Of a stretch of DNA of 20,000 nucleotides, positions 3,059-20,000 are shown in pieces. Numbering within the stretch: the stretch's first letter is position 1; each line of letters begins with the position of its first letter. The translations under genes and the position numbers were made by a program. The DNA is from an uncultured virus (IMG/VR IMGVR_UViG_3300025570_000010) (lineage: Duplodnaviria; Heunggongvirae; Uroviricota; Caudoviricetes; Schitoviridae). Below the pieces are notes generated by a model. It searched no databases. It was given only the letters and a program-made list of their open reading frames with translations, and had not been told where the DNA came from. The stretch lies in the IMG/VR virus record IMGVR_UViG_3300025570_000010. One strand, written 5' to 3'.

Positions 3059-5254
3059 TTAGGTCATCTTTGCAGCGACCGATTTCAGAATAGTCAACTC
3101 GACCTCGTCCTTTTTCAGGGGACTTGGCGACTGCTCATTGAGCGTGTTGACCTTGCCTTTGATCACATCGTAGCTGGCCCCTGCATCCTTCAGCATCATT
3201 GCAAAATTGAGCAGGTTGTTGTTTCTATTCCCAACTTCCATGTTGTTCAAGAACCAACGTTCGAGGTGATCCAAACGTCCCAGATCAGCTACCTGTGCGG
3301 TGTACTCACTGTTCTGTTTGGTTTTCGGAATGAACGGCAACACGTTGACGAGGTTCGGGCCTTTGTGAACAAAGACTTGCGAATTCTCATGTGTCATCCA
3401 TTTCTTGGACCGCTGGTTTGCGGACCCATCTGACTTGAATGGCAGCCAAAGAAGGAAGCTATCCACGAAGTCCCGATAGTCTGCTTTGTCCAGCTTCAGA
3501 TTATAGTTTGCTGGCATGATCAGACGGAACCGGTGCTCTTCGTCAGTGTGACGTTTGGTTGTTGCGGTCGTGAACGTGTAGTCCTTCATCAGCTCATGGA
3601 GAGCCTCAAGACGGATGCCGTAGCTCAGGATCTTTCCATCCTTATCACGCTCATGACCATCAATATCCACCACAAGACAATTGAAACCTTCGATGACATT
3701 GTCTTCCGACCGGTGCTCTTTGTCGAAGTGGTGGTTACACCAATGCATCCCCGGTGCAGCCAACAGCTTTGGAAGGCTGTCGAATGGTTTCTGCATTGGA
3801 GAATAGTCGGAAGCGAAGTGATCAGAGAAGCTGAAGCTGATCTTGTTCAGATCGGTCTCCTCTAGGGTTGAACCAGTGAAGAAATCAACTCCGCTGATCA
3901 CGTTCTTCTTGATGACAACGTGGTTGCCCACGCCCCATGCCATTGCGAGATCCATAATCTCCCGACGAGGTGTCGTGGAGGATGGATAATATGGCAGATC
4001 TTCAACCAGATCAGCATGGGTCAAGGTCACGCCTGACTCAGCGATATACTTCGCCAGACGAACGAAATTCCGTTCCCTCTTGAGAAGGGTCTGGAACGAT
4101 GCTCCACTTTCTTCAGCAACCTTGAATGCCTGCCGGAGGTTCTTCTTGGTGATGTCCGAGGACTCGTCCAAGAAGGCATAGATTCCAGCGAGCTTGAGGG
4201 CTTTGAAGTACCGGTGAGACAGTTCAGCCTTCCGGACAACCTCGTGCTCAGGCAGAGAGTTGGCTACCGTTTCACAGTAGAGACGATAGGAGATCAGTTC
4301 GACACCAACCTCCTTTGGCACGTCGATCTTCAGATTGAAGAAACGAGTGTCAGCGAACTTGGCCAGTTTTTGCTTCCAGTTTAGGAGAGCCTGTGACCGG
4401 TTCTTGGACACCAACCCGTTGTAAACATCTTCAGGGTTGATGGTGGGAGAGAAAGTTTCAGGCTTCCCCATCCCGAAGAAACACCTCCGAGCGTACCCAG
4501 TCTCAAGGAAGGAATAGAACTCCTCCTCAGTCTTGGATCCGTCGAAGAGTTTCGACGTGGTTCCGAACATGAGCATGTTGGCAGGGGTTGCCCCGACCAA
4601 ATCAATACCCCGCTCGTTGTCCGTGGTGTTCTTCACCAGTTTGGTTTTGATCCGGCCTAAGTCGTATAGCTCAAGGAGGATGTTGATCACCTCCGTGTTG
4701 CCTATGATATTGGAACCGATCTCATCCATTTGGAAATTGATTGAACCAGCACGAGCAAGGAGCAGCTTGTAACGTAGCTGCTTCACCGCTGGGCCAGTAC
4801 CGGAGTCAAAGATGAAAGGAGCATGCCCCTGACGCTTAAAATCAGCCTCCAGGAGCTTCTTCTCATCATCTTCGCTTCCGGACTTTGCAGCAGCAATGTC
4901 TACAGCCAGATCATAGATCGAGGCTTCGGCAATTGCAGGAAAGACATGACCCGTGAAGATCTGCCGAAAGTCAGAAATGACATCTTCCATCAAGGACACA
5001 GAGTGACCTTTACCAAAGCCTGACGTTGCCAGAGCAATGGAATAGATATTGATTGGGATGTTCCCACGTTCCGGGCTGACAATCGTCGCTCGCATGGAGC
5101 TTGGAATCAGACTCAGAAAGTAGGCAACTTCAGCCTGGAAGAAGTCACGGTTGACGTTTCCTGTGCGGTGGCACAACAGATCAACCAGCTCCGACATGGC
5201 CGGGTGATGAGATTCTTTCTCAATCACACTGAGGTCATAGAGTGGTTTTGACAC
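3059..5254 (-). CDS. N4 gp43-like DNA primase (P-loop N-terminal region, primase-like centre, PriCT-like C-terminus)
   Basis: ATSGFGKG P-loop and MDEIG; VVDID...TKRH...HRFRL; C-terminal GNRNNNL; SD AAGGAG upstream. Confidence 0.85.
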   Translation of the reverse strand: MSKPLYDLSVIEKESHHPAMSELVDLLCHRTGNVNRDFFQAEVAYFLSLIPSSMRATIVSPERGNIPINIYSIALATSGFGKGHSVSLMEDVISDFRQIFTGHVFPAIAEASIYDLAVDIAAAKSGSEDDEKKLLEADFKRQGHAPFIFDSGTGPAVKQLRYKLLLARAGSINFQMDEIGSNIIGNTEVINILLELYDLGRIKTKLVKNTTDNERGIDLVGATPANMLMFGTTSKLFDGSKTEEEFYSFLETGYARRCFFGMGKPETFSPTINPEDVYNGLVSKNRSQALLNWKQKLAKFADTRFFNLKIDVPKEVGVELISYRLYCETVANSLPEHEVVRKAELSHRYFKALKLAGIYAFLDESSDITKKNLRQAFKVAEESGASFQTLLKRERNFVRLAKYIAESGVTLTHADLVEDLPYYPSSTTPRREIMDLAMAWGVGNHVVIKKNVISGVDFFTGSTLEETDLNKISFSFSDHFASDYSPMQKPFDSLPKLLAAPGMHWCNHHFDKEHRSEDNVIEGFNCLVVDIDGHERDKDGKILSYGIRLEALHELMKDYTFTTATTKRHTDEEHRFRLIMPANYNLKLDKADYRDFVDSFLLWLPFKSDGSANQRSKKWMTHENSQVFVHKGPNLVNVLPFIPKTKQNSEYTAQVADLGRLDHLERWFLNNMEVGNRNNNLLNFAMMLKDAGASYDVIKGKVNTLNEQSPSPLKKDEVELTILKSVAAKMT

Positions 5255-5265
5255 GGGGTGTCTCC

Positions 5266-6264
5266 TTATGTTCGACTTCCATCGTCGTGGAAGTAGTTTT
5301 TGCGTTGTTCACAAACCGAAAAAGCAGGACAGTATGGACATGCCTTGACTTCACCAGGGACGGTGACGACTGCGCCTTTGCCTTTGTCCTTGAGCCAAAG
5401 CTGTGCATCAGCTTCATTGTCAAAGTTCTTCTGGCATTTACCACCGGCCTTGGCCGTTGATTCGTTGGCGTAGTATTTGTACTGAGGCTCGGACTGCCAC
5501 AGTTCTTTGTCAGTGCATTGCACCATCTTCTCTTGGCTCAGACCAGCATTCTGAATGATGTGGTCGATCTTGCCATTGACCCAATCCTCTGTCTCTTTCA
5601 GGGACAGCAGAGCGAACTCCTTGTGGGGTGTCCGGATCTGAGGGTATTTGGGATCAGCGGTGCGATACTTGACCCAGTCTGTGAAGATGAATTGAATCCG
5701 CATCACATCATCTCGGATCAGGTCCGGCATGATCCAGCGATACATGGAACCCTGGAGAATGTAGTCTTCGTCTTTGTTCCCAGAAGTCCAAGCAAATGTG
5801 CTGGTGGATTTGAAATCCCGATAGGCTTGGCCGATCAGAAAGTCGAGCTGACCGGTGATGACCAGATCCCGGAATTGCTTGTAGCCACGGATCTCCAGAT
5901 AGATAGGGATCTCGTCGTCTTTCAGCTTCTTGGGATCCGGATTGATCCGGATTTTGTCGATGACCTTCTGAGGGTAGTGCAGCTTACGCATGGCCAACTG
6001 CCAGTTACCTTCGGTCCAGGCACGCTCGATCGAGTCATGGAGACCATGACCCATACGGGAAGCGATGATGTCTGAGAGATCCATCTCTTCCATGGTTTGA
6101 TCAACCTTACGCTTGAGAATGAGCTGACGAGTCGGCTTCATCAAGGTGGTCACAGAGATCAATTCCCCTGGAGGAGCTTCAGCAGCTCCAGATTTGTAAC
6201 CGTCTTGCAGCAGCCAAACGGCCAAGGGCAAGTCGATCTTGTGATTATTGGTTATTTTAACCAT
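5266..6264 (-). CDS. PD-(D/E)XK (Cas4-like) exonuclease, N4 gp42-like
   Basis: H...E...GQLD...DFKST motif and C-terminal CPYC...C cluster. I moved the start to the ATG at 6264, which has a GGAG SD and overlaps the polymerase stop. Confidence 0.85.
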   Translation of the reverse strand: MVKITNNHKIDLPLAVWLLQDGYKSGAAEAPPGELISVTTLMKPTRQLILKRKVDQTMEEMDLSDIIASRMGHGLHDSIERAWTEGNWQLAMRKLHYPQKVIDKIRINPDPKKLKDDEIPIYLEIRGYKQFRDLVITGQLDFLIGQAYRDFKSTSTFAWTSGNKDEDYILQGSMYRWIMPDLIRDDVMRIQFIFTDWVKYRTADPKYPQIRTPHKEFALLSLKETEDWVNGKIDHIIQNAGLSQEKMVQCTDKELWQSEPQYKYYANESTAKAGGKCQKNFDNEADAQLWLKDKGKGAVVTVPGEVKACPYCPAFSVCEQRKNYFHDDGSRT

Positions 6265-7003
6265 TGAGTTTCTCCAGGTGTTTGCCGATTGCTTTTTGGA
6301 CATCGGCTATGGTTGCATTTGCAGGGATGGTCATCTCTTCCTTCCAGTTGGGATAGAAGATCGACAGCTCCCCAGACATCTTGATGTGCTCATTTTGGAT
6401 GGCAGGATCTTCTTGCCAACTCACGGCTTTCACCATGTGTTTGTTTGTGTAAAGCAAGACTTCCATGTCATCTCTGATGAGCATGTATCCAGCGTCATGG
6501 ATCTGAGCACACGGTTTGATGTCCAAACGATGTGGTCCTTTTCGGACAGTAGAAAGGAACTCAGAACCGGCACGAGAATTCAACATGCAGTATGATTGTC
6601 CAAGGGCATTACCTGCTGTACGGCCCTCAGCGGCTGCCTCATACGGTGTCTTGCTGGTTCCCAGCACAACCTGCTTCAGCAGGGGAGTCCGCAATCTGAG
6701 ACCAAAAGCAAGGGTGACGTAGCCATCCTTACAGGCTTGTTCCAATTTATCTGCAACCCACTTGTCAGAGACGTGGTACAGATTGTGATAGCTGGCTTCG
6801 ATTGACTTAGCCAACTGCGAGGTGAAGCCACAGTTTGCCATCAGAGTCACATACGTCCCCTGATAGGTGAGAGCAAAGGTGGGAGCCTTCGACTCTTGTC
6901 TCCAGTGGGGGTAGAGCTTCTTGATGGAGTTGACACGAGCGACGTTGTGTTCGCTCGCGTCTACTGTGGAGACAGACTCGACTACTCCATTCAGTTTAAG
7001 CAT
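6257..7003 (-). CDS. Family A DNA polymerase, C-terminal fragment (motifs B and C)
   Basis: RQESKAPTFALTYQG (motif B), GYVTLAFG, NALGQS, QIHDA (motif C). Confidence 0.92.
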   Translation of the reverse strand: MLKLNGVVESVSTVDASEHNVARVNSIKKLYPHWRQESKAPTFALTYQGTYVTLMANCGFTSQLAKSIEASYHNLYHVSDKWVADKLEQACKDGYVTLAFGLRLRTPLLKQVVLGTSKTPYEAAAEGRTAGNALGQSYCMLNSRAGSEFLSTVRKGPHRLDIKPCAQIHDAGYMLIRDDMEVLLYTNKHMVKAVSWQEDPAIQNEHIKMSGELSIFYPNWKEEMTIPANATIADVQKAIGKHLEKLNG

Positions 7004-7199
7004 CGCCTACTACAGCAGCTTTAACAGCCCACATGCTGAAGTCTTCCAGTTTGGTCAGTGCTACAGAACGACGACGACCGTTGGGAATATTGTCGATGAT
7101 ATATTGCTCCATATCAACGACAGCATTTTTAATACCATCAACAGTTTGGTTGTTGCTTGGATTAAATTTGGGATCGGTTACACTCATTGGTTCACTCAT
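6996..7199 (-). CDS. Acb2/Tad1-like helical hairpin protein (putative anti-defence nucleotide sponge)
   Basis: FNPS...VDGIK...GRRRSVALTKLEDFSMWAVKAA resembles the Acb2/Tad1 hairpin signature (R-x-x-S/A-x-A-x-T-K-L-E-x-x-x-M-W). It overlaps both polymerase fragments. Confidence 0.7.
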   Translation of the reverse strand: MSEPMSVTDPKFNPSNNQTVDGIKNAVVDMEQYIIDNIPNGRRRSVALTKLEDFSMWAVKAAVVGDA

Positions 7200-9271
7200 T
7201 TGTTGAGTTGGGCAAACAGCTCATGTCCGAGCAGTTTTTGACCCTGATATTCTATCTCCTCATTGCTGTGGAAATAGATCTGTTTCCCATCGACGATTGC
7301 CTTGTAGGCAGTAGCTCCATCAGGGAGCATCTCAATGTCTGGCATGTGCTCTTTGAAGTAAGCCAATGCACGAAGACAGTGTCCGTCGAACCCATCAGAA
7401 TACACCTTGATCTTCTCTGGATCCTTGGTGGTCACTGCTGAAATTTTGTCCTCCAACGAATCGAAGTCCAAACCCACAAACAGCCATCCGGGAGGTGCCT
7501 CAAAACACTCTTTGATGAGCTTGGCAAGTCTTTGTTTGACCTTTGTGGAACCAGCAGAAGGGATGTTCTGTAGGTTGGGGTTGTTACTGGAAAGCCTACC
7601 AGATGCAGTGCCACCCAGCCGGAAGTTTCCGAACAGGTAATGCCATCCATCGTTACCCTTAACGGCTTTAAGGAATGCCGGAAGAAACGTAGAGAGGATG
7701 ATTGCACTGGCTTTGAACTCGATCAGGATCTCCAGAAACCGAATCACTTCGGGATCTTTGGTGTGGTTGATCAGCTTCTCAAGCGTCTCAGCTCCCGTTG
7801 CAGGTTGCTTGGTGTCCGTGTAGTCGAGGACTGGGAGACCCAGGAAATCCTCGGAATACAGGAAGCGTTGGAGCTGTTTAGAGCTGCCAGGATTGAACTT
7901 GACAACGGTGTCTTTTGTAGAACCAAGATCTGCCTTGGTGATCTGCTTGGTTTTGAGTTTGGCATTCTTCTCTATCACCTTTTCGTCTTTGAGTGTGTCT
8001 ATATAGGACCAGACGATTTGCAGATTGTTCATCCGTGCTAAGTTTCCATCCGACTCTTTGTTGAGCTGCTTGTCCAAGGCTTTAACCTTGGCCATGTTCA
8101 GGGGCATCCCTGTGAGCTGCATCTGAATGATGTCGATCACTGCTGGACGGAAAAGCGTCTGGTATGGTTCATCCTGAAGATCGGCAAGCATGATCGGCAA
8201 GTTTTTCTTGTAGACGTACCATGTGGAAAGTCCGTCGATCAGGTTGTACCGGAGCAAATCCGGAAGAGCGATCAGCCTGATGTCATGGATGTCTTCCTGA
8301 GCATAGTTCCCAGCAAACTCCTGAGCCTGTGTCTTGAGACCCAGCTCATTTCCTGCACAGGAATTGGTGGCCAGATAAGTGATGATCTGTGTGCAGTCCC
8401 AATCTTTCAGCATCACTTCCAGACCTTCAAGGAGACCCTTTTGATCTAGGATGTGATCCATAAACAGTTGATAAACAAGGACATACACGTCGTAACAGAT
8501 GTTGTGGTAGATCATCTTCCGCTTGAAATTGTAGAAGAAATCTCTGAGCAGTTGACGAATAACAGGGTTCTCAACACGACCAGATTTCTGACCCTCCTTC
8601 CCGATGGACGTAGAGTCCACTGCGAAAGCAATGCCCTCGTGTTCATTCCAACAGAAGGTGATCGTGCCAATCCCAGCATCGTAATGCTTCAGGTCAAAGC
8701 CTTCGATGTCACATGTGAGATCACAATCCATCTCCAGTAGTTTGTTCAACCACTTGGCAATACCAGTTGGCCCCACAGGGTAATCAGCGAACTTGATGAT
8801 GTTCGATCCCACCACAGTGGAGTTACCTCTGGCCCATCGTTTGGTGGACTCCAGAGCCATCCCGATCTTTGCCTTCATCTTGTCAGGGTCATAGAAGACC
8901 CGGCCATAGTTGGGGCAGTAGGTGATCGTGAAGTCTGTATCATACTCTGATATGAAGAAGTCCCCAATGGTGGCATCGGTCTTGGCCTTCTTGGACAGGA
9001 TCTTGAAGTAGTCCGGCTGTGTAACGACAAGCATCTCAATGCCTGCTGCCTTGAGGTTGGGCAACAGGTCATCGAGATACTCTTTCATGTCGGCAGCCGA
9101 GTTCTTCTTCTTGGTTCCATCCATGAAGAGGTCAGCGATCATGACACTCTCACCCAGAGCCAGAAGGTGAGGCTGGTAGTAATGCTTCTGCACCTCCGCT
9201 GTCTGGATACGTGGAACCAGGATACAGATCCTGGGATCCTTTGCAGAGTTGCCGATGATCTCATATTTCAT
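7196..9271 (-). CDS. Family A DNA polymerase, N-terminal fragment (N-terminal domain, 3'-5' exonuclease, thumb, motif A)
   Basis: ExoI CDIEG, ExoII HNICYD, ExoIII YNLID, TASGRLSSNNPNLQNIP and motif A LDFDSLE. The start is set at ATG 9271 (AGGAAG SD). Confidence 0.92.
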   Translation of the reverse strand: MKYEIIGNSAKDPRICILVPRIQTAEVQKHYYQPHLLALGESVMIADLFMDGTKKKNSAADMKEYLDDLLPNLKAAGIEMLVVTQPDYFKILSKKAKTDATIGDFFISEYDTDFTITYCPNYGRVFYDPDKMKAKIGMALESTKRWARGNSTVVGSNIIKFADYPVGPTGIAKWLNKLLEMDCDLTCDIEGFDLKHYDAGIGTITFCWNEHEGIAFAVDSTSIGKEGQKSGRVENPVIRQLLRDFFYNFKRKMIYHNICYDVYVLVYQLFMDHILDQKGLLEGLEVMLKDWDCTQIITYLATNSCAGNELGLKTQAQEFAGNYAQEDIHDIRLIALPDLLRYNLIDGLSTWYVYKKNLPIMLADLQDEPYQTLFRPAVIDIIQMQLTGMPLNMAKVKALDKQLNKESDGNLARMNNLQIVWSYIDTLKDEKVIEKNAKLKTKQITKADLGSTKDTVVKFNPGSSKQLQRFLYSEDFLGLPVLDYTDTKQPATGAETLEKLINHTKDPEVIRFLEILIEFKASAIILSTFLPAFLKAVKGNDGWHYLFGNFRLGGTASGRLSSNNPNLQNIPSAGSTKVKQRLAKLIKECFEAPPGWLFVGLDFDSLEDKISAVTTKDPEKIKVYSDGFDGHCLRALAYFKEHMPDIEMLPDGATAYKAIVDGKQIYFHSNEEIEYQGQKLLGHELFAQLNK

Positions 9272-9361
9272 TTTCAACTTCCTACTTATTTTGTGACCAT
9301 CTCTTACCAAAGAGATATAACTACAGTTCAGCTTCACATGGTTTTAGCACATGAGTCGTAG

Positions 9362-9420
9362 GCGGGAATCGAACCCGCGTTCTACCAAGTCTCGGTCAAC
9401 GAAAGGGAATCGAACCCCTA
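9362..9420 (-). other. Two tandem tRNA T-arm-like hairpins (GGGTTCGATTCCC) without a recognisable full cloverleaf
   Basis: On the minus strand, AGGGG-TTCGATT-CCCTT and GCGGG-TTCGATT-CCCGC lie about 41 nt apart in the helicase-polymerase intergenic region. Confidence 0.6.
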
Positions 9421-14296: not shown

Positions 14297-14469
14297 GAGA
14301 GTATCGGTTGGTAAGGACGACCACGGAAGATGGCCTTGTACCGAAGAGCTTCTTGGTTTTTCAACCACTTACGATATTCTTCTGTGTCCCTCGCAGTGGT
14401 TTGTTTGGCCAAATTAACGGCCAGATTCAGCACTGGATAGCACACGGTACAGAGTAGAGTTTTTCGCAT
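14293..14469 (-). CDS. Hypothetical 58-aa protein absent from the ORF track (MRKTLLCTVCYPVLNL...GRPYQPILS)
   Basis: CAGGAG SD 8 nt before the ATG; CxxC motif; stop overlaps the next start (ATGA). Confidence 0.6.
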   Translation of the reverse strand: MRKTLLCTVCYPVLNLAVNLAKQTTARDTEEYRKWLKNQEALRYKAIFRGRPYQPILS

Positions 14470-14812
14470 TGGCTTTCTCCTGATTGCGAGCGTCTCTTCG
14501 ACGCTGGTTCTCTTTGTGTGTCACCATCTCAAGATGATCTGGGTTCACACACATACGGTTATTACACAGATGGTCTATCTGCTTTTTTCCCGGCACGAAA
14601 CCATTCTTGTTCACGAATGAGACAATGTGAACGGCGACTGTCTGGCCATTTAGCGACATGCGGGGGTATCCTCCCCCTCTTCCGGTGCCTGAATCGGACC
14701 CCTGCCAGATGTGACAGGGATCCCGTCGACCATTCAGTCTGAAGCCAAGATACCGGATCACGACGTTGTCCATGATCTTCTCATGGATGTCTGTTCTCCG
14801 GCACATGATCAC
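14414..14812 (-). CDS. HNH endonuclease
   Basis: CHIWQG...GYP...HIVSF...IDHLCNNRMCVNPDHLEMVTHKEN. Confidence 0.9.
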   Translation of the reverse strand: MIMCRRTDIHEKIMDNVVIRYLGFRLNGRRDPCHIWQGSDSGTGRGGGYPRMSLNGQTVAVHIVSFVNKNGFVPGKKQIDHLCNNRMCVNPDHLEMVTHKENQRRRDARNQEKANAKNSTLYRVLSSAESGR

Positions 14813-17452: not shown

Positions 17453-19612
17453 TTAAAACCACCGTCCCTCGATAGTAATGGAAACAGTAACTATGGATGC
17501 TGAAGTCTCATTAGAATATCGGAAAGCAGTTATGTTTAGTAGATCGGTAATGGTCACGCCTGATGCAGATACAGTGACTGCTCGTGTATCATCTGCGTTG
17601 TTTGATACATAAGGTGTCATAGCAACAGAAAGAGGGAATGATACAAATGGTAGAGGAAATGTAAAATCCAGCGGAGTAGTTTTATAAGGGTCCGTTACAG
17701 TGCCATCCCCCAAAGCATTGCTTGCACCAAGAGAGAATGTAGCAACAAGTTTCATACGACCATCATTGTATTTTGTCCAATATCCGGTTGTATTGCTGGT
17801 TCCTCCTTTGGAGTGAACATCAGGCAAATACTGAATACCTCTCAAATGAGAGTCAACAATAGTACCTGCACCTTCTGTCTCAAACTCAAGAAACTCAGTG
17901 TTAGAGGGTCTGTCTGGACTACCCACAAAAGGTCCAACAATCAAACCAGAAAAGTCTGTATCTGGTTCCGTGGCTATGGCTACGATTCTCGTATCACCAG
18001 CAGTCATCAAAGCATTAGAAACTATATGATGGAAACTGTAGAATCGAACATCTGTGAAGTCAAAGAAGCAATTCGTGAAAGAGGAGCTGTAAGCACAGTC
18101 TTTTTCAATAACTATTTGACGAGACCAGCTATGCATATTGTTACATTGTACAGATCCAAAAGACCCAACAATAAGACCAATATCTTGACCACTTGAAATG
18201 TTTACACCATCTATCATTGCATCAGCGGTATAGATACCAACACCGAAGTTCTGCATAGAACCTCCAATGGTGATTTGACCTGAGATAGTGTCACTCAAAG
18301 TAATCCCAGTAACTACTGCAAATTCAAGTGTTGAAGGGGTGTCTTGATATTCAGTGCTGTTACGACGAAGAGTTACAGTTTCTGAGATTGGATTGTTTTT
18401 TGCATAGTCAGCAAACCCTGTAATTGTAACAGAAACGCCTGCATCAACTTTAGGGAAACTCAAACGAGTACATATTTTTGTTGGAGCAACTGGAGACACC
18501 CACTCACCAGAAACAACCTCACTGCCTGTAAGAGCAAGAGGAATATTGGTTCCAGTAGTTGGTGTGTGTTTTAAGACAATACCATTACCCAGAAAAGGTT
18601 TTTCAAGATTCCGGTAAGTGCTTGAACTATGGTAAACATTGTTCAAAAACTGAAGAAAAACATTTTTGGTTTTATAGGGGTATGTACTGCCAACTCGGTT
18701 TTTATCGCCAAAAGAGGTGAGATCACCAAAGCATTTGAAACCAATGTGGTAAACATTTCCTTCTACTCGGGAATGAGCAGTGTTTTCCCAAAAACGCCCA
18801 CCAGTGGCATAGTTACAGTCAATGAAAAAAGACTTCTCAAATGTGATCGAACGAATACGAAGATCTTGTGCTTCAGAGCCAACGTCTGCGTTCAAACGAT
18901 CAGCGATAACAAAAGCGTATCCGGGCATACCAGCAGCAATACTGGTCCAAGTACCGTTTGGATCACAAGAGATGTACCCATTACGAAGACTAAGACCGTA
19001 AAACCAACCTGCACCCAAGCCATTTACTCGACCAATAATAATTGGTGAGGAAATCAACATATTCTCCCCAAGGCAATCAATGGCGGGAGAAATTCCTGCA
19101 TTGATTACCTCATTAGAGGTAATCGTTGAACCACTGAAATTTGCAGAAAATCTCAAAGCAGATTTGAAAGCTTCAGTCATATCCGTAACAAGAGGCGTGG
19201 TATTATCCATGTAATGTTGAGGACTGATAGCCATATCGGGTCCAACTTTAGGAAGCCAATTTGGGATGTCAGTAATACCTGTACTGCCTGTTGATTTATA
19301 GAAGTACAGAACAGTCTCTTTATAAGAGACCCCCATCACATAATCATTTGGAAGAGTATCGAATACTCCGTTGGCATTGTCAGTGACAAATTGAGCACGA
19401 TTGGGATACACATTACTATTTAAAAGACTCTGAACAGAATCTGATAATGTTTGAGCTGAATTAGCAGCGACTTGAGCTGAAGCCGCAGCATTTTCTGCTG
19501 CAACTCTGTTAGATTCATCATTGATAATGATATAGGAAGTAGGATCACCTACATTCACATCAAAATTTGTATCAGTATCTGTTGATACGGTGATGGTAAA
19601 GTTATCCAGCAT
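17453..19612 (-). CDS. Tail fibre / tailspike-like receptor-binding protein
   Basis: N-terminal Ala-rich coiled linker; beta-helix-like centre (DMTEAFKSAL...); C-terminal GYWTKYNDG...FPLPF...IEGRW module typical of fibre ends. Confidence 0.7.
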   Translation of the reverse strand: MLDNFTITVSTDTDTNFDVNVGDPTSYIIINDESNRVAAENAAASAQVAANSAQTLSDSVQSLLNSNVYPNRAQFVTDNANGVFDTLPNDYVMGVSYKETVLYFYKSTGSTGITDIPNWLPKVGPDMAISPQHYMDNTTPLVTDMTEAFKSALRFSANFSGSTITSNEVINAGISPAIDCLGENMLISSPIIIGRVNGLGAGWFYGLSLRNGYISCDPNGTWTSIAAGMPGYAFVIADRLNADVGSEAQDLRIRSITFEKSFFIDCNYATGGRFWENTAHSRVEGNVYHIGFKCFGDLTSFGDKNRVGSTYPYKTKNVFLQFLNNVYHSSSTYRNLEKPFLGNGIVLKHTPTTGTNIPLALTGSEVVSGEWVSPVAPTKICTRLSFPKVDAGVSVTITGFADYAKNNPISETVTLRRNSTEYQDTPSTLEFAVVTGITLSDTISGQITIGGSMQNFGVGIYTADAMIDGVNISSGQDIGLIVGSFGSVQCNNMHSWSRQIVIEKDCAYSSSFTNCFFDFTDVRFYSFHHIVSNALMTAGDTRIVAIATEPDTDFSGLIVGPFVGSPDRPSNTEFLEFETEGAGTIVDSHLRGIQYLPDVHSKGGTSNTTGYWTKYNDGRMKLVATFSLGASNALGDGTVTDPYKTTPLDFTFPLPFVSFPLSVAMTPYVSNNADDTRAVTVSASGVTITDLLNITAFRYSNETSASIVTVSITIEGRWF

Positions 19613-20000
19613 GGTTAGTCACATCCTCTTGTACAACAATTTTGAAGGTATTTGTTGATCTTACACCTTCCCCAGGGACAGTGAATTCTACATCACAATC
19701 ATAGCTTCTTGGAGACCACCCCTGTGTATCTGCACTAAGCGCAGACAATGTAAACAGGTTTAGAGGACTTCCTGGTTTTGTGACTGTAAATGCCTGTGTA
19801 AGAGTTCCACACCATCTCATTTCTGATTCGATTGTCCAATTTGTAATGTCTACAAGGATTGCAGCATTGTAGGCATCAAGTGCATTTTGTACATCAACTG
19901 TAGATACAGGATCTGCGGCCATGGTGGTAGCGAGGTCATTTGCGGCTTGGATAGCCCCTGAAGTCTCTACGTTGGTTACATAGAGATTTATAGAGAAATC
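19602..20000 (-). CDS. BppU-like virion/baseplate-associated protein (5' end outside the window)
   Basis: The frame is open to the window edge (DFSINLYVTN...). C-terminal DCDVEF...STNTFKIVVQEDVT; overlaps the fibre start. Confidence 0.55.
   Translation of the reverse strand, partial: DFSINLYVTNVETSGAIQAANDLATTMAADPVSTVDVQNALDAYNAAILVDITNWTIESEMRWCGTLTQAFTVTKPGSPLNLFTLSALSADTQGWSPRSYDCDVEFTVPGEGVRSTNTFKIVVQEDVTNHAG

What the first reader, a model, noticed from the sequence alone, without database searches (positions are those of the whole stretch)
6257..9271. DNA polymerase fractured between motifs A and B, with a passenger gene in the gap
Seen: the exonuclease and motif A (LDFDSLE) are in a 691-aa ORF, while motifs B and C are in a separate 248-aa ORF. 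An intact 67-aa gene lies between them, and all three overlap at stop/start junctions, suggesting translational coupling rather than decay. Known: the motif A and motif C aspartates form one active site, and N4's polymerase is a single chain. Inference: this is a two-subunit family A polymerase that must reassemble, and the break point is a cargo site. Split polymerases have been noted in some N4-like phages, so the novelty may lie in the mechanism and cargo.
Basis: partly seen in the sequence, partly recalled or inferred. Interest (0 to 1): 0.8.

Follow-up and report, generated by a model that had tools for sequence, protein, structure and literature searches.

The report
Split phage polymerase carrying anti-defence cargo
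An uncultured N4-like phage makes its DNA polymerase from two separate genes, and the gap between them is a reusable slot that here holds a small gene resembling proteins phages use to soak up bacterial alarm signals.

Summary
On the minus strand, a family A polymerase is encoded as a 691-aa gene (inactive-UDG-like region, exonuclease, motif A) and a 248-aa gene (motifs B and C), with a small ORF between them. Contigs from four public runs bridge both junctions with no differences.

The split is old and functional-looking. I found the same break in 41 distinct metagenomic loci. Both halves are under purifying selection (dN/dS about 0.07-0.17). The N-fragment carries a conserved 44-aa tail predicted to fold as a small beta-sheet plus helix. 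No intron or intein signature was found.

The passenger is an Acb2-family helical hairpin. Its nearest solved relative is Acb2_43 (PDB 9PTQ), a 3'cADPR sponge that blocks Thoeris.

The gap is a cargo slot:
- Tad2-like genes in 20 of 41 loci
- Acb2-like genes in 4
- other genes in 5
- an HNH endonuclease alone in 3
- nothing in 9

Physical reassembly of the halves and sponge activity are inferred, not shown.

In passing: all five relatives with an HNH gene beside the C-fragment also have an insertion inside motif B. Three of these are 40-48-nt hairpin elements that resemble the T4 gene 60 ribosomal bypass cassette.

The parts
7196..9271 (-). Family A DNA polymerase N-fragment, 691 aa plus stop. 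It covers the N-terminal region, the 3'-5' exonuclease, the thumb, and palm motif A.
   Evidence: ORF. PF00476 positions 24-200 of 381, E 2e-26. phrog_17 DNA polymerase, E 2e-106. 65% identity to the unsplit polymerase of Dinoroseobacter phage DFL12phi1. The assignment of an inactive UDG-like N-terminal domain to N4-like PolAs comes from PMC10201439 (passages) and was not tested here.
7451..7471 (-). Motif A (LDFDSLE, residues 601-607)
   Evidence: D602, S605, L606, E607 and D608 are invariant in 19 aligned N-parts.
7199..7330 (-). Clade-specific 44-aa C-terminal tail of the N-fragment (residues 648-691), absent from unsplit relatives
   Evidence: Alignment to unsplit polymerases. Conserved in 9 split relatives. 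dN/dS 0.10-0.23. The AF2 model shows four short strands plus a helix, with block pLDDT 81-91.
6996..7199 (-). Passenger gene: an Acb2-family helical hairpin. The ORF is 67 aa; the likely product is 63 aa from the ATG at 7187.
   Evidence: PF24729 E 4e-10, 40.1 bits against a cut-off of 27. 90 homologues, mostly 62-63 aa, all carrying PF24729. Profile hit to PDB 9PTQ 'Acb2 homolog 43', E 2e-8. AF2 helical hairpin, pLDDT 88.
6257..7003 (-). Family A DNA polymerase C-fragment, 248 aa plus stop. It covers the fingers O-helix (motif B) and palm motif C.
   Evidence: ORF. PF00476 positions 199-303 of 381. phrog_2573 E 5e-37. 470 phage records match it by tblastn.
6962..7003 (-). 14-aa N-terminal head of the C-fragment, absent from unsplit relatives
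   Evidence: Unsplit relatives align only from residue 15. It is weakly constrained, with dN/dS 0.2-1.8 over 13 codons.
6857..6901 (-). Motif B (RQESKAPTFALTYQG, residues 35-49), intact in the window
   Evidence: R35, K39, F43, Y47 and G49 are invariant. The C-fragment reading frame is intact in L010, which is identical to the window here.
6491..6502 (-). Motif C (IHDA, residues 168-171)
   Evidence: I168, H169, D170 and A171 are invariant in 19 sequences.
6996..7003 (-). 3' junction ATGCTTAA: the cargo stop lies inside the first codons of the C-fragment
   Evidence: Sequence. A cargo-stop/C-fragment-start overlap is visible at most of the cargo-bearing junctions among the 23 printed.

Best explanation
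The window comes from an uncultured N4-like (Schitoviridae-type) phage. Its replicative family A DNA polymerase is made as two separately translated polypeptides that assemble non-covalently into one enzyme.

The cut lies in the fingers, about 20 residues before the O-helix. Motif A is therefore on the 691-aa chain, and motifs B and C are on the 248-aa chain. The N-chain ends in a conserved, folded 44-aa tail, which probably serves as a docking module.

The intergenic gap is an expression slot. It has a conserved ribosome-binding spacer straddling the N-fragment stop, and a C-fragment start that overlaps the stop of whatever gene sits upstream. The slot's content is exchanged among related phages, probably by recombination that uses the two polymerase halves as homology arms.

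In the window, the slot holds a 63-aa Acb2-family hairpin protein. This most likely forms an oligomeric sponge that sequesters a host immune nucleotide signal. Its closest characterised relative binds the Thoeris signal 3'cADPR.

The split itself probably originated from invasion by a homing-endonuclease cassette, which a few relatives still carry.

Shown here: gene structure, conservation, selection, family membership, and cargo turnover. Inferred: subunit assembly, sponge activity and ligand, and the origin.
For: Structure and contiguity.

The same break with tail was found in 41 distinct loci. 23 come. 18 more come.

Catalytic residues are invariant. dN/dS is 0.07-0.12 for the N-core, 0.07-0.17 for the C-core, and 0.10-0.23 for the tail, with dS often saturated. 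The tail is modelled as an ordered beta-meander plus helix, pLDDT 81-91, while the incomplete palm is modelled poorly. All 20 of 20 tail-bearing proteins in the 5.8-billion-protein set are 511-698 aa long; none is a fused form.

No group I intron was found at E<=10 in window 6000-8000. The same library does detect an intron in the interrupted polymerase of Acinetobacter phage nACB1 (E 2e-7 and 3e-4).

Cargo tally over the 41 loci: Tad2-like PF11195 in 20, Acb2 hairpin PF24729 in 4, other genes in 5, NUMOD4/HNH_3 alone in 3, no ORF in 9.

Cargo turns over between near relatives. L011 retains only the first ~30 nt and last ~13 nt of the Tad2 gene that is intact in its sister L012.

Passenger identity. 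Acb2_43 biology comes from bioRxiv 10.1101/2025.08.24.671296 (passages).

Passenger relatives stand alone in unrelated phage contexts, so the passenger is not a polymerase part.

No minus-strand terminator-like site was found between 5200 and 10900.

Precedents for active split enzymes: the T4-like phage 25 gp43A/43B and the Aeh1 NrdA (review PMC2988022, passages).
Against: - There is no direct evidence that the halves bind or are active.
- No expression data could be obtained.
- The C-fragment head is barely constrained, so a tail-head clasp is unsupported.
- Sponge function rests on homology alone. The passenger is shorter than classical Acb2.
- Foldseek found no significant structural match; T4 Vs.4 appeared only at E 4.6.
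- Tad2-like/DUF2829 is a broad family, and not every member is a proven sponge.
- 9 of 41 slots are empty, so cargo is dispensable.
- The N-fragment tree does not make split phages one clade. Known unsplit roseophages nest beside split L020 with 99/100 support. So either re-fusion or repeated acquisition occurred.
Confidence: 0.77

Rival explanations
1. The insert is a self-splicing intron, or the tail and head are split-intein halves (a 'fractured gene'), so a single-chain polymerase is restored after RNA or protein splicing.
For: Interrupted N4-like polymerase genes are described in print as intron-encoded HNH cases (Pollock, PMC4319500). Acinetobacter phage nACB1 has sub-threshold but significant group I intron matches around an HNH gene in motif B. 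Split-intein 'fractured genes' with endonucleases exist in metagenomes (PMC2677866, search listing only).
Against: No Rfam match was found in the window, nor in L018, L059, L064 or L052. In L016 the gap is only 13 nt. The tail is under protein-level purifying selection and folds. Cargo genes have their own start context. No intein or Hint family matched at E<=0.1. Tail plus head total only 58 aa. The residue after the conserved HN in the head is Val, not Cys, Ser or Thr.
Confidence: 0.03
2. The polymerase gene is decaying (a pseudogene), or the split is an assembly or sequencing artefact.
For: Metagenome-derived record, about 72% complete. No isolate in 50,697 phage records carries the tail.
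Against: Contigs from 4 runs are identical across both junctions. The exact passenger protein occurs on 7 contigs, and its 63-aa form on 10. The split is conserved across 41 diverged loci with dN/dS around 0.1 and invariant catalytic residues.
Confidence: 0.02
3. The small passenger is a third polymerase subunit (a bridging or processivity factor) and not an anti-defence protein.
For: It is translationally coupled between the two halves. It is small and helical.
Against: Homologues occur as free-standing genes next to terminase or portal genes and in other contexts. In Sulfitobacter phage phiCB2047-B, a homologue lies far from the polymerase, fused to a RyR domain. In relatives the slot instead holds the unrelated Tad2-like fold, or nothing. 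It matches the Acb2 family by sequence.
Confidence: 0.06
4. The slot is simply a tolerated insertion hot spot for any accessory gene. The excess of sponge families reflects their general abundance in these phages, not a dedicated anti-defence role.
For: Cargo also includes an Nmad5-domain protein, crAss001_48-like proteins, RyR-domain proteins and unknowns. Tad2-like genes occur elsewhere in N4-like isolates (VEc25) and upstream of an unsplit polymerase (L135).
Against: 24 of the 32 occupied slots carry one of two unrelated sponge families. Within close relatives, Acb2-like and Tad2-like genes replace each other at the same junctions.
Confidence: 0.12

Closest known systems
Split PolB gene 43 (43A/43B) of Aeromonas phages 25 and 44RR; also Aeh1 nrdA/mobE and T4 gene 39/mobA/gene 60
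   Same: An essential phage replication enzyme is cut into two genes. The gap holds an intercistronic sequence or a homing endonuclease. The pieces co-purify and are active (review PMC2988022, passages).
   Different: Those cases involve family B polymerase, RNR or topoisomerase, not family A. No accessory anti-defence cargo is reported in their gaps.
HNH-interrupted polymerases of N4-like isolates (E. coli phage Pollock; Acinetobacter phage nACB1)
   Same: Same polymerase family and same part of the gene. The nACB1 endonuclease is 54% identical to the HNH found in the slot of relatives.
   Different: In nACB1 the insertion sits inside motif B (…APTFA | …TYMG…) and matches the group I intron model. 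The window's break lies about 20 residues upstream, has no intron match, and adds peptide extensions.
Exo/pol domain split in T7-like PolA (S-SBP1-type), Czernecki et al. 2023, PMC10201439
   Same: A family A polymerase encoded by two genes.
   Different: That cut lies between the exonuclease and polymerase domains and was described as the first split seen in PolAs (abstract and passages). Here the cut is inside the polymerase domain, between motifs A and B.
OM43 phages MEP401/MEP402: DNAP split by a small unknown ORF (PMC10580990)
   Same: A marine phage DNA polymerase in two genes with a small ORF between them (passages).
   Different: That is a different phage family. The inserted ORF was left unidentified and an intron was suspected. 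I did not compare the sequences.
Acb2_43 (PDB 9PTQ) and the Acb2/Tad1/Tad2 sponge families
   Same: The passenger family profile matches 9PTQ over residues 8-59 (E 2e-8). It shares the two-helix hairpin and an invariant Lys in helix 1. Acb2_43 sequesters 3'cADPR and blocks type I Thoeris but not CBASS (bioRxiv 10.1101/2025.08.24.671296).
   Different: The passenger is 63 aa against 76 aa. Its oligomeric state and ligand are untested. Equating the invariant Lys with the paper's K19 assumes a one-residue numbering offset that I could not verify.

Membership tests
Family A DNA polymerase (Pfam PF00476), N4-like group | Match to the family profile | tested here: met
   The N-fragment scores 93.1 bits against a cut-off of 34.3. 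The C-fragment alone scores 30.9 bits, below the cut-off, but continues the same model from position 199. PHROG polymerase families match both halves.
Family A DNA polymerase (Pfam PF00476), N4-like group | Catalytic motifs A, B and C with their acidic and basic residues | tested here: met
   D602 and E607 (motif A); R35, K39, F43, Y47 and G49 (motif B); H169 and D170 (motif C). All are invariant in 19 sequences. Motif names are from general knowledge.
Family A DNA polymerase (Pfam PF00476), N4-like group | Single polypeptide carrying all three motifs | tested here: not met
   Stop at 7196-7198 and a separate start at 7003. Unsplit relatives are 871-874 aa.
Acb2 / Tad1 hairpin family (PF24729) | Profile match above the curated cut-off, and similarity to a solved member | tested here: met
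   40.1 bits against 27. 9PTQ E 2e-8; T4 Vs.4 E 0.09 through the shared ...TKL.EASMWA... stretch.
Acb2 / Tad1 hairpin family (PF24729) | Two long antiparallel helices | tested here: met
   The AF2 model has helices at 18-37 and 42-64, mean pLDDT 88.3. Foldseek gave no significant hit, as expected for so simple a fold.
Acb2 / Tad1 hairpin family (PF24729) | Hexamer that binds cyclic nucleotide or cADPR signals | not testable with these tools
   The complex predictor was unavailable.
Group I intron (Rfam RF00028) | Match to the covariance model in the insert | tested here: not met
   No match at E<=10 in window 6000-8000. Positive control nACB1: 41 and 30.5 bits.
Split intein / 'fractured gene' | Hint-domain halves at the facing termini, with Cys/Ser at the N-junction and HN followed by Cys/Ser/Thr at the C-junction | tested here: not met
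   No intein family matched at E<=0.1. The tail is 44 aa and the head 14 aa. The tail begins Met-Leu-Pro. The head has ...EHN followed by Val.
Homing-endonuclease split-gene cassette (mobE/nrdA, mobA/gene 60 type) | Endonuclease gene in the gap | tested here: not met
   The window's gap holds only the Acb2-like gene. NUMOD4+HNH_3 genes sit next to the C-fragment in 5 of 41 relatives.

The most novel reading that the evidence does not exclude
The break point is the landing pad of a mobile cassette built like T4's mobA/gene 60 element. The cassette consists of a NUMOD4-HNH endonuclease gene, the first ~46 codons of the C-fragment, and a 40-48-nt hairpin insert inside motif B that ribosomes must hop over. 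The insert has Thr codons at take-off and landing, in-frame stops, and a purine-rich stretch before the landing codon.

On this reading, the window is an endonuclease-free descendant whose vacated slot was taken over by exchangeable immune-signal sponge genes. N4-like polymerases would then host a second, independent family of programmed translational bypass elements, selected as self-immunity against a homing endonuclease.
Probability: 0.33. Interest if true: 0.9.

Novelty: new variant of a known kind. Interest (0 to 1): 0.68.

Why it matters
Split replication enzymes and anti-defence hot spots are each known. Here the hot spot lies inside an essential gene, and I found no printed example of that.

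Three things follow:
- It shows that a family A polymerase tolerates a cut in the fingers, between motifs A and B. That gives a natural system for asking how polymerase halves find each other, with a folded 44-aa tail as the candidate docking module.
- It offers a simple genomic rule for finding new anti-defence genes in uncultured phages: read whatever sits between the two polymerase halves. The unknown cargo (88-, 99-, 72- and 188-aa proteins and an Nmad5-domain protein) becomes a short list of candidates.
- The alternation of two unrelated sponge folds at one junction suggests selection by signalling defences such as Thoeris or CBASS in the hosts.

If the hairpin inserts in relatives are indeed bypassed by ribosomes, they would give a second natural example of an otherwise nearly unique recoding event.

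Literature searches for a printed description of sponge genes in a split polymerase, or of bypass elements in a polymerase gene, found none.

Tried and rejected
Subunit contact is therefore untested.
- Foldseek of the passenger model against PDB: no match at E<=0.001.
- PADLOC scan of the passenger and five cargo proteins: no hits. That library holds defence systems, not anti-defence proteins.
- No RNA holder was listed among the public runs, so nothing can be said about expression or splicing from reads.
- I suspected that two adjacent 'hypothetical' genes of Sulfitobacter phage phiCB2047-B were another split polymerase. The alignment shows they are unrelated.
- The apparent similarity of the N-tail to the motif B region of unsplit enzymes (BLAST extensions to q661-677) was considered as a target-site duplication. 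It rests only on ...YQG and was not pursued.
- An exact search for the L018 hairpin found only its own contig. A looser pattern gave 7 hits: 3 were polymerase loci and 4 were unrelated hairpins with no polymerase match.
- No tail-bearing sequence was found in 50,697 deposited phage records at E<=1.
- Earlier-findings look-ups by place and by sequence returned nothing.
- bioRxiv supplements were not available. The Acb2 homologue list of 10.1101/2025.08.24.671296 might already contain this protein family.

Full report
**What is in the window**

Three genes lie head to tail on the minus strand:
- 9271..7196, 691 aa
- 7199..6996, 67 aa
- 7003..6257, 248 aa

The junctions read ATGA and ATGCTTAA. 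Pfam's family A polymerase model matches the first protein over model positions 24-200 and the third over positions 199-303. A single domain is therefore cut near position 200. PHROG polymerase families agree.

The surrounding genes form the usual N4-type replication block: a class II-type ribonucleotide reductase, a helicase, gp42-, gp43- and gp44-like genes. The record is a 53-kb viral contig, about 72% complete. The nearest named phages are N4-like roseophages of the Rhodovirinae. Their polymerases are single chains of 871-874 aa.

**Where the cut is**

In unsplit relatives the sequence runs ...MPDID-PSSVDSINSI...RQESKAPTFALTYQG. In the window the N-fragment follows this to ...MPDIE and then adds 44 residues with no counterpart. 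The C-fragment begins with 14 extra residues before homology resumes about 20 residues ahead of motif B. Motif A is on one chain and motifs B and C are on the other. Their key residues are invariant in 19 aligned sequences.

**Is it real?**

Contigs of four public runs cover 6200-9400, or the junction part of it, with no differences, indels or joints at the junctions. These runs may include the source sample, so the stronger argument is comparative.

Searches with the C-fragment, with an alignment of the tail, and with an alignment of C-fragments returned 37, 21+17 and 80 loci. After merging identical and near-identical loci, I count 41 distinct loci with the same break. Their C-fragment identity to the window runs from roughly 57% to 100% among loci aligned over the full length; the most distant lineage (L043-45) aligns at 48% from residue 42. 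In three of the 41, the N side lies off the contig.

Against ten relatives, dN/dS values are as follows:

| Region | dN/dS |
|---|---|
| N core | 0.07-0.12 |
| C core | 0.07-0.17 |
| 44-aa tail | 0.10-0.23 |
| 13 head codons | 0.2-1.8 |

dS is often saturated. All 20 tail-bearing proteins found in the large protein collection are 511-698 aa long; none is fused. No deposited phage record carries the tail.

**Not an intron or an intein**

Rfam finds nothing in window 6000-8000 even at E<=10, and nothing in four relatives at E<=0.1. The same search does find group I intron matches (41 and 30.5 bits) flanking the HNH gene that interrupts motif B in Acinetobacter phage nACB1, so an intron of this kind would have been detectable.

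One relative (L016) has only 13 nt between the halves. No intein family matches. The extensions are far too short for intein halves, and the junction residues are wrong.

**The tail**

A model of N-fragment residues 400-691 places the last 44 residues in four short strands followed by a helix, with block pLDDT of 81-91. The palm, which lacks its partner chain, is modelled poorly. A folded, selected tail at the tip of the fingers is the best candidate for holding the halves together. I could not test this because the complex predictor was unavailable.

**The passenger**

It matches Pfam PF24729 (Acb2/Tad1 hairpin) above the cut-off. It belongs to a tight family of mostly 62-63-aa proteins; 90 were found and all carry that domain.

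A profile of the family hits PDB 9PTQ, 'Acb2 homolog 43', at E 2e-8, and T4 Vs.4 weakly. The model is a two-helix hairpin with pLDDT 88. Foldseek is uninformative on so simple a fold.

According to the preprint that solved 9PTQ, Acb2_43 forms a hexamer, sequesters 3'cADPR, and blocks type I Thoeris but not CBASS (passages).

Relatives of the passenger stand alone in unrelated phage contexts, for example beside terminase and portal genes. In Sulfitobacter phage phiCB2047-B, a relative lies elsewhere in the genome, fused to a RyR domain. The passenger is therefore an accessory gene, not a polymerase part.

Its likely start is the second ATG (7187). That matches both the family length and the position of cargo starts in relatives.

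**The gap is a cargo slot**

Content across the 41 loci:

| Slot content | Loci |
|---|---|
| Tad2-like (PF11195, E 1e-17 to 1e-26); two of these also carry an HNH gene | 20 |
| Acb2-type hairpin, alone or fused to RyR or an unknown domain | 4 |
| Other genes only: unknown 88-, 99-, 72- and 188-aa proteins and an Nmad5-domain protein | 5 |
| NUMOD4/HNH_3 endonuclease alone | 3 |
| No ORF | 9 |

So 24 of the 32 occupied slots carry one of two unrelated immune-signal sponge families.

Turnover is fast. L011 and L012 are sisters on the polymerase tree. L012 has a Tad2-like gene, while L011 keeps only its first ~30 nt and last ~13 nt. The window (Acb2-like) is close to L014 (Tad2-like).

The junctions are conserved. 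Cargo starts 8-12 nt after the N-fragment stop, behind a purine-rich spacer. The cargo stop overlaps the C-fragment start, typically as ...GATGCTTAA. No terminator-like site interrupts the block.

The simplest reading is an expression slot that is co-transcribed and translationally coupled with the replicase. Its content would be swapped by recombination between co-infecting relatives.

**Origin**

On a maximum-likelihood tree of N-parts (25 rows), split phages are not one clade. The known unsplit roseophage group is sister to split L020 with 99/100 support. At least two changes of state are needed, whether re-fusion or repeated acquisition.

Five relatives carry a NUMOD4-HNH homing endonuclease directly upstream of the C-fragment. 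L014 and L018 are nearly identical except for a tract that comprises the HNH gene, the first ~45 codons of the C-fragment, and a 40-nt insert in motif B. This has the look of a co-conversion tract.

I therefore think the split was created by an endonuclease cassette, as proposed for T4 gene 39/60 and Aeh1 nrdA, and that the slot was later used by accessory genes.

**Side observation that may outweigh the main one**

All five loci with that HNH gene have a disruption inside motif B (...KAPTFALT|YQG...).
- **L018, L152 and L169:** inserts of 40, 48 and 45 nt.
- **L059:** a 1-nt insertion.
- **L158:** a 6-nt in-frame insertion carrying TAG.

Among the 33 HNH-free loci where motif B can be read, only one lineage is disrupted. 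That is L043-45, with a 5-nt tandem duplication that puts TAA after ACT. Fisher's test with 35 HNH-free loci intact gave p = 8e-6. Dropping the three loci whose contigs end before motif B gives about 1e-5 by hand calculation.

The three long inserts are related. Each follows a Thr codon and ends in a Thr codon just before TAT CAG GG. Each contains in-frame stops. Each has a GC hairpin starting 6 nt after the first Thr codon, with arms that differ between phages but stay paired; one has a UUCG loop. Each has a purine-rich stretch before the second Thr codon. RNA folding z-scores are -4.0 and -5.6. No restart codon would preserve the YQG of motif B.

This is the architecture of the T4 gene 60 bypass cassette with mobA. 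There too, the gap follows codon 46 of the downstream fragment (bioRxiv 10.1101/2022.08.31.505936, passages). I found no printed case in a polymerase gene. This is a hypothesis from three contigs, and the window itself has an intact motif B.

**Comparison with what is known**

- Split essential phage genes with endonucleases are established.
- A PolA exo/pol split was reported as the first PolA split.
- OM43 phages have a polymerase split by a small unidentified ORF.
- Phage Pollock's polymerase is described as interrupted by an intron-encoded HNH.

New here:
- a cut inside the polymerase domain that is conserved and intron-free
- a folded tail
- the use of the gap as a slot for sponge-family genes

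**Verdict**

The passenger is identified as an Acb2-family gene. Subunit assembly and sponge activity remain to be shown.

Noticed in passing
L018:3639-3678; L152:3139-3186; L169:1155-1199 (relatives, not the window): These loci carry 40-, 48- and 45-nt inserts inside motif B of the C-fragment. Each is flanked by Thr codons, contains in-frame stops, has a conserved GC hairpin with compensatory arm changes, and has a purine-rich spacer. Each lies just downstream of a NUMOD4-HNH gene. The inserts resemble the T4 gene 60 bypass cassette.
   Followed up: partly
L059:3993 (also L060, L079); L158:3097-3102; L045:3499-3503 (also L043, L044): Further small disruptions fall within the same five codons of motif B. 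L059 has a 1-nt insertion (TTT C GCA). L158 has a 6-nt in-frame insertion with TAG. L045 has a 5-nt tandem duplication that places TAA after ACT and a second ACT before TTT. The first two have an HNH gene in the slot. How these genes are decoded is unexplained.
   Followed up: partly
L052:1679-2333 and L064:1676-2330: These relatives have a second cut just before motif A, making a three-piece polymerase. A 161-aa protein lies in that gap. It matches PHROG families annotated as HNH endonuclease (E 2.5e-38) but no Pfam family. Both new termini carry helical extension peptides.
   Followed up: partly
L055:1578-2330 and L054:11-730: The last ~117 codons of an N-fragment with its tail, a short Tad2-like gene, and a 26-aa piece of the C-fragment sit inside an unrelated phage context with lysis-type genes. 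The segment is flanked by a repeated MV(H/Y)LVSWLV coding stretch. It looks like a transplanted slot fragment, or possibly a chimeric assembly.
   Followed up: no
L086 (Acinetobacter phage nACB1, OQ032511.1) 3355-4157: The annotated 'DNA polymerase / HNH / DNA polymerase' arrangement is an insertion inside motif B. It has group I intron matches below Rfam's gathering score but with E 2e-7 and 3e-4. The record does not annotate an intron.
   Followed up: partly
L130:435-3001: This is a heavily fragmented polymerase. It has an intein-like ...GIVNHN|SS junction inside the N part, an HNH_3 gene between two N pieces, and a 188-aa ORF with no Pfam match in the slot.
   Followed up: no
window 14414..14812 (-): A free-standing HNH_3 / His-Me finger endonuclease gene (132 aa, E 2e-13) lies elsewhere in the window, among small unknown genes.
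   Followed up: no
window 17500..20000: G+C drops from about 0.50 to 0.39-0.43 over the last 2.5 kb. This region holds a 719-aa ORF (17453..19612, minus strand) with no Pfam match.
   Followed up: no
L001:4620-5186 (Sulfitobacter phage phiCB2047-B, SUFG_00048): This 'hypothetical protein' is a fusion of a RyR domain and an Acb2/Tad1 hairpin. The same fusion occupies the polymerase slot in L019. In L006 the two domains are separate neighbouring genes.
   Followed up: partly
L038:2669-3300 and L046:2464-3090: Polymerase genes that are not split at the window's break point carry ~630-nt interruptions at other positions of the N part. In L038 the interruption contains an endonuclease-like ORF.
   Followed up: no
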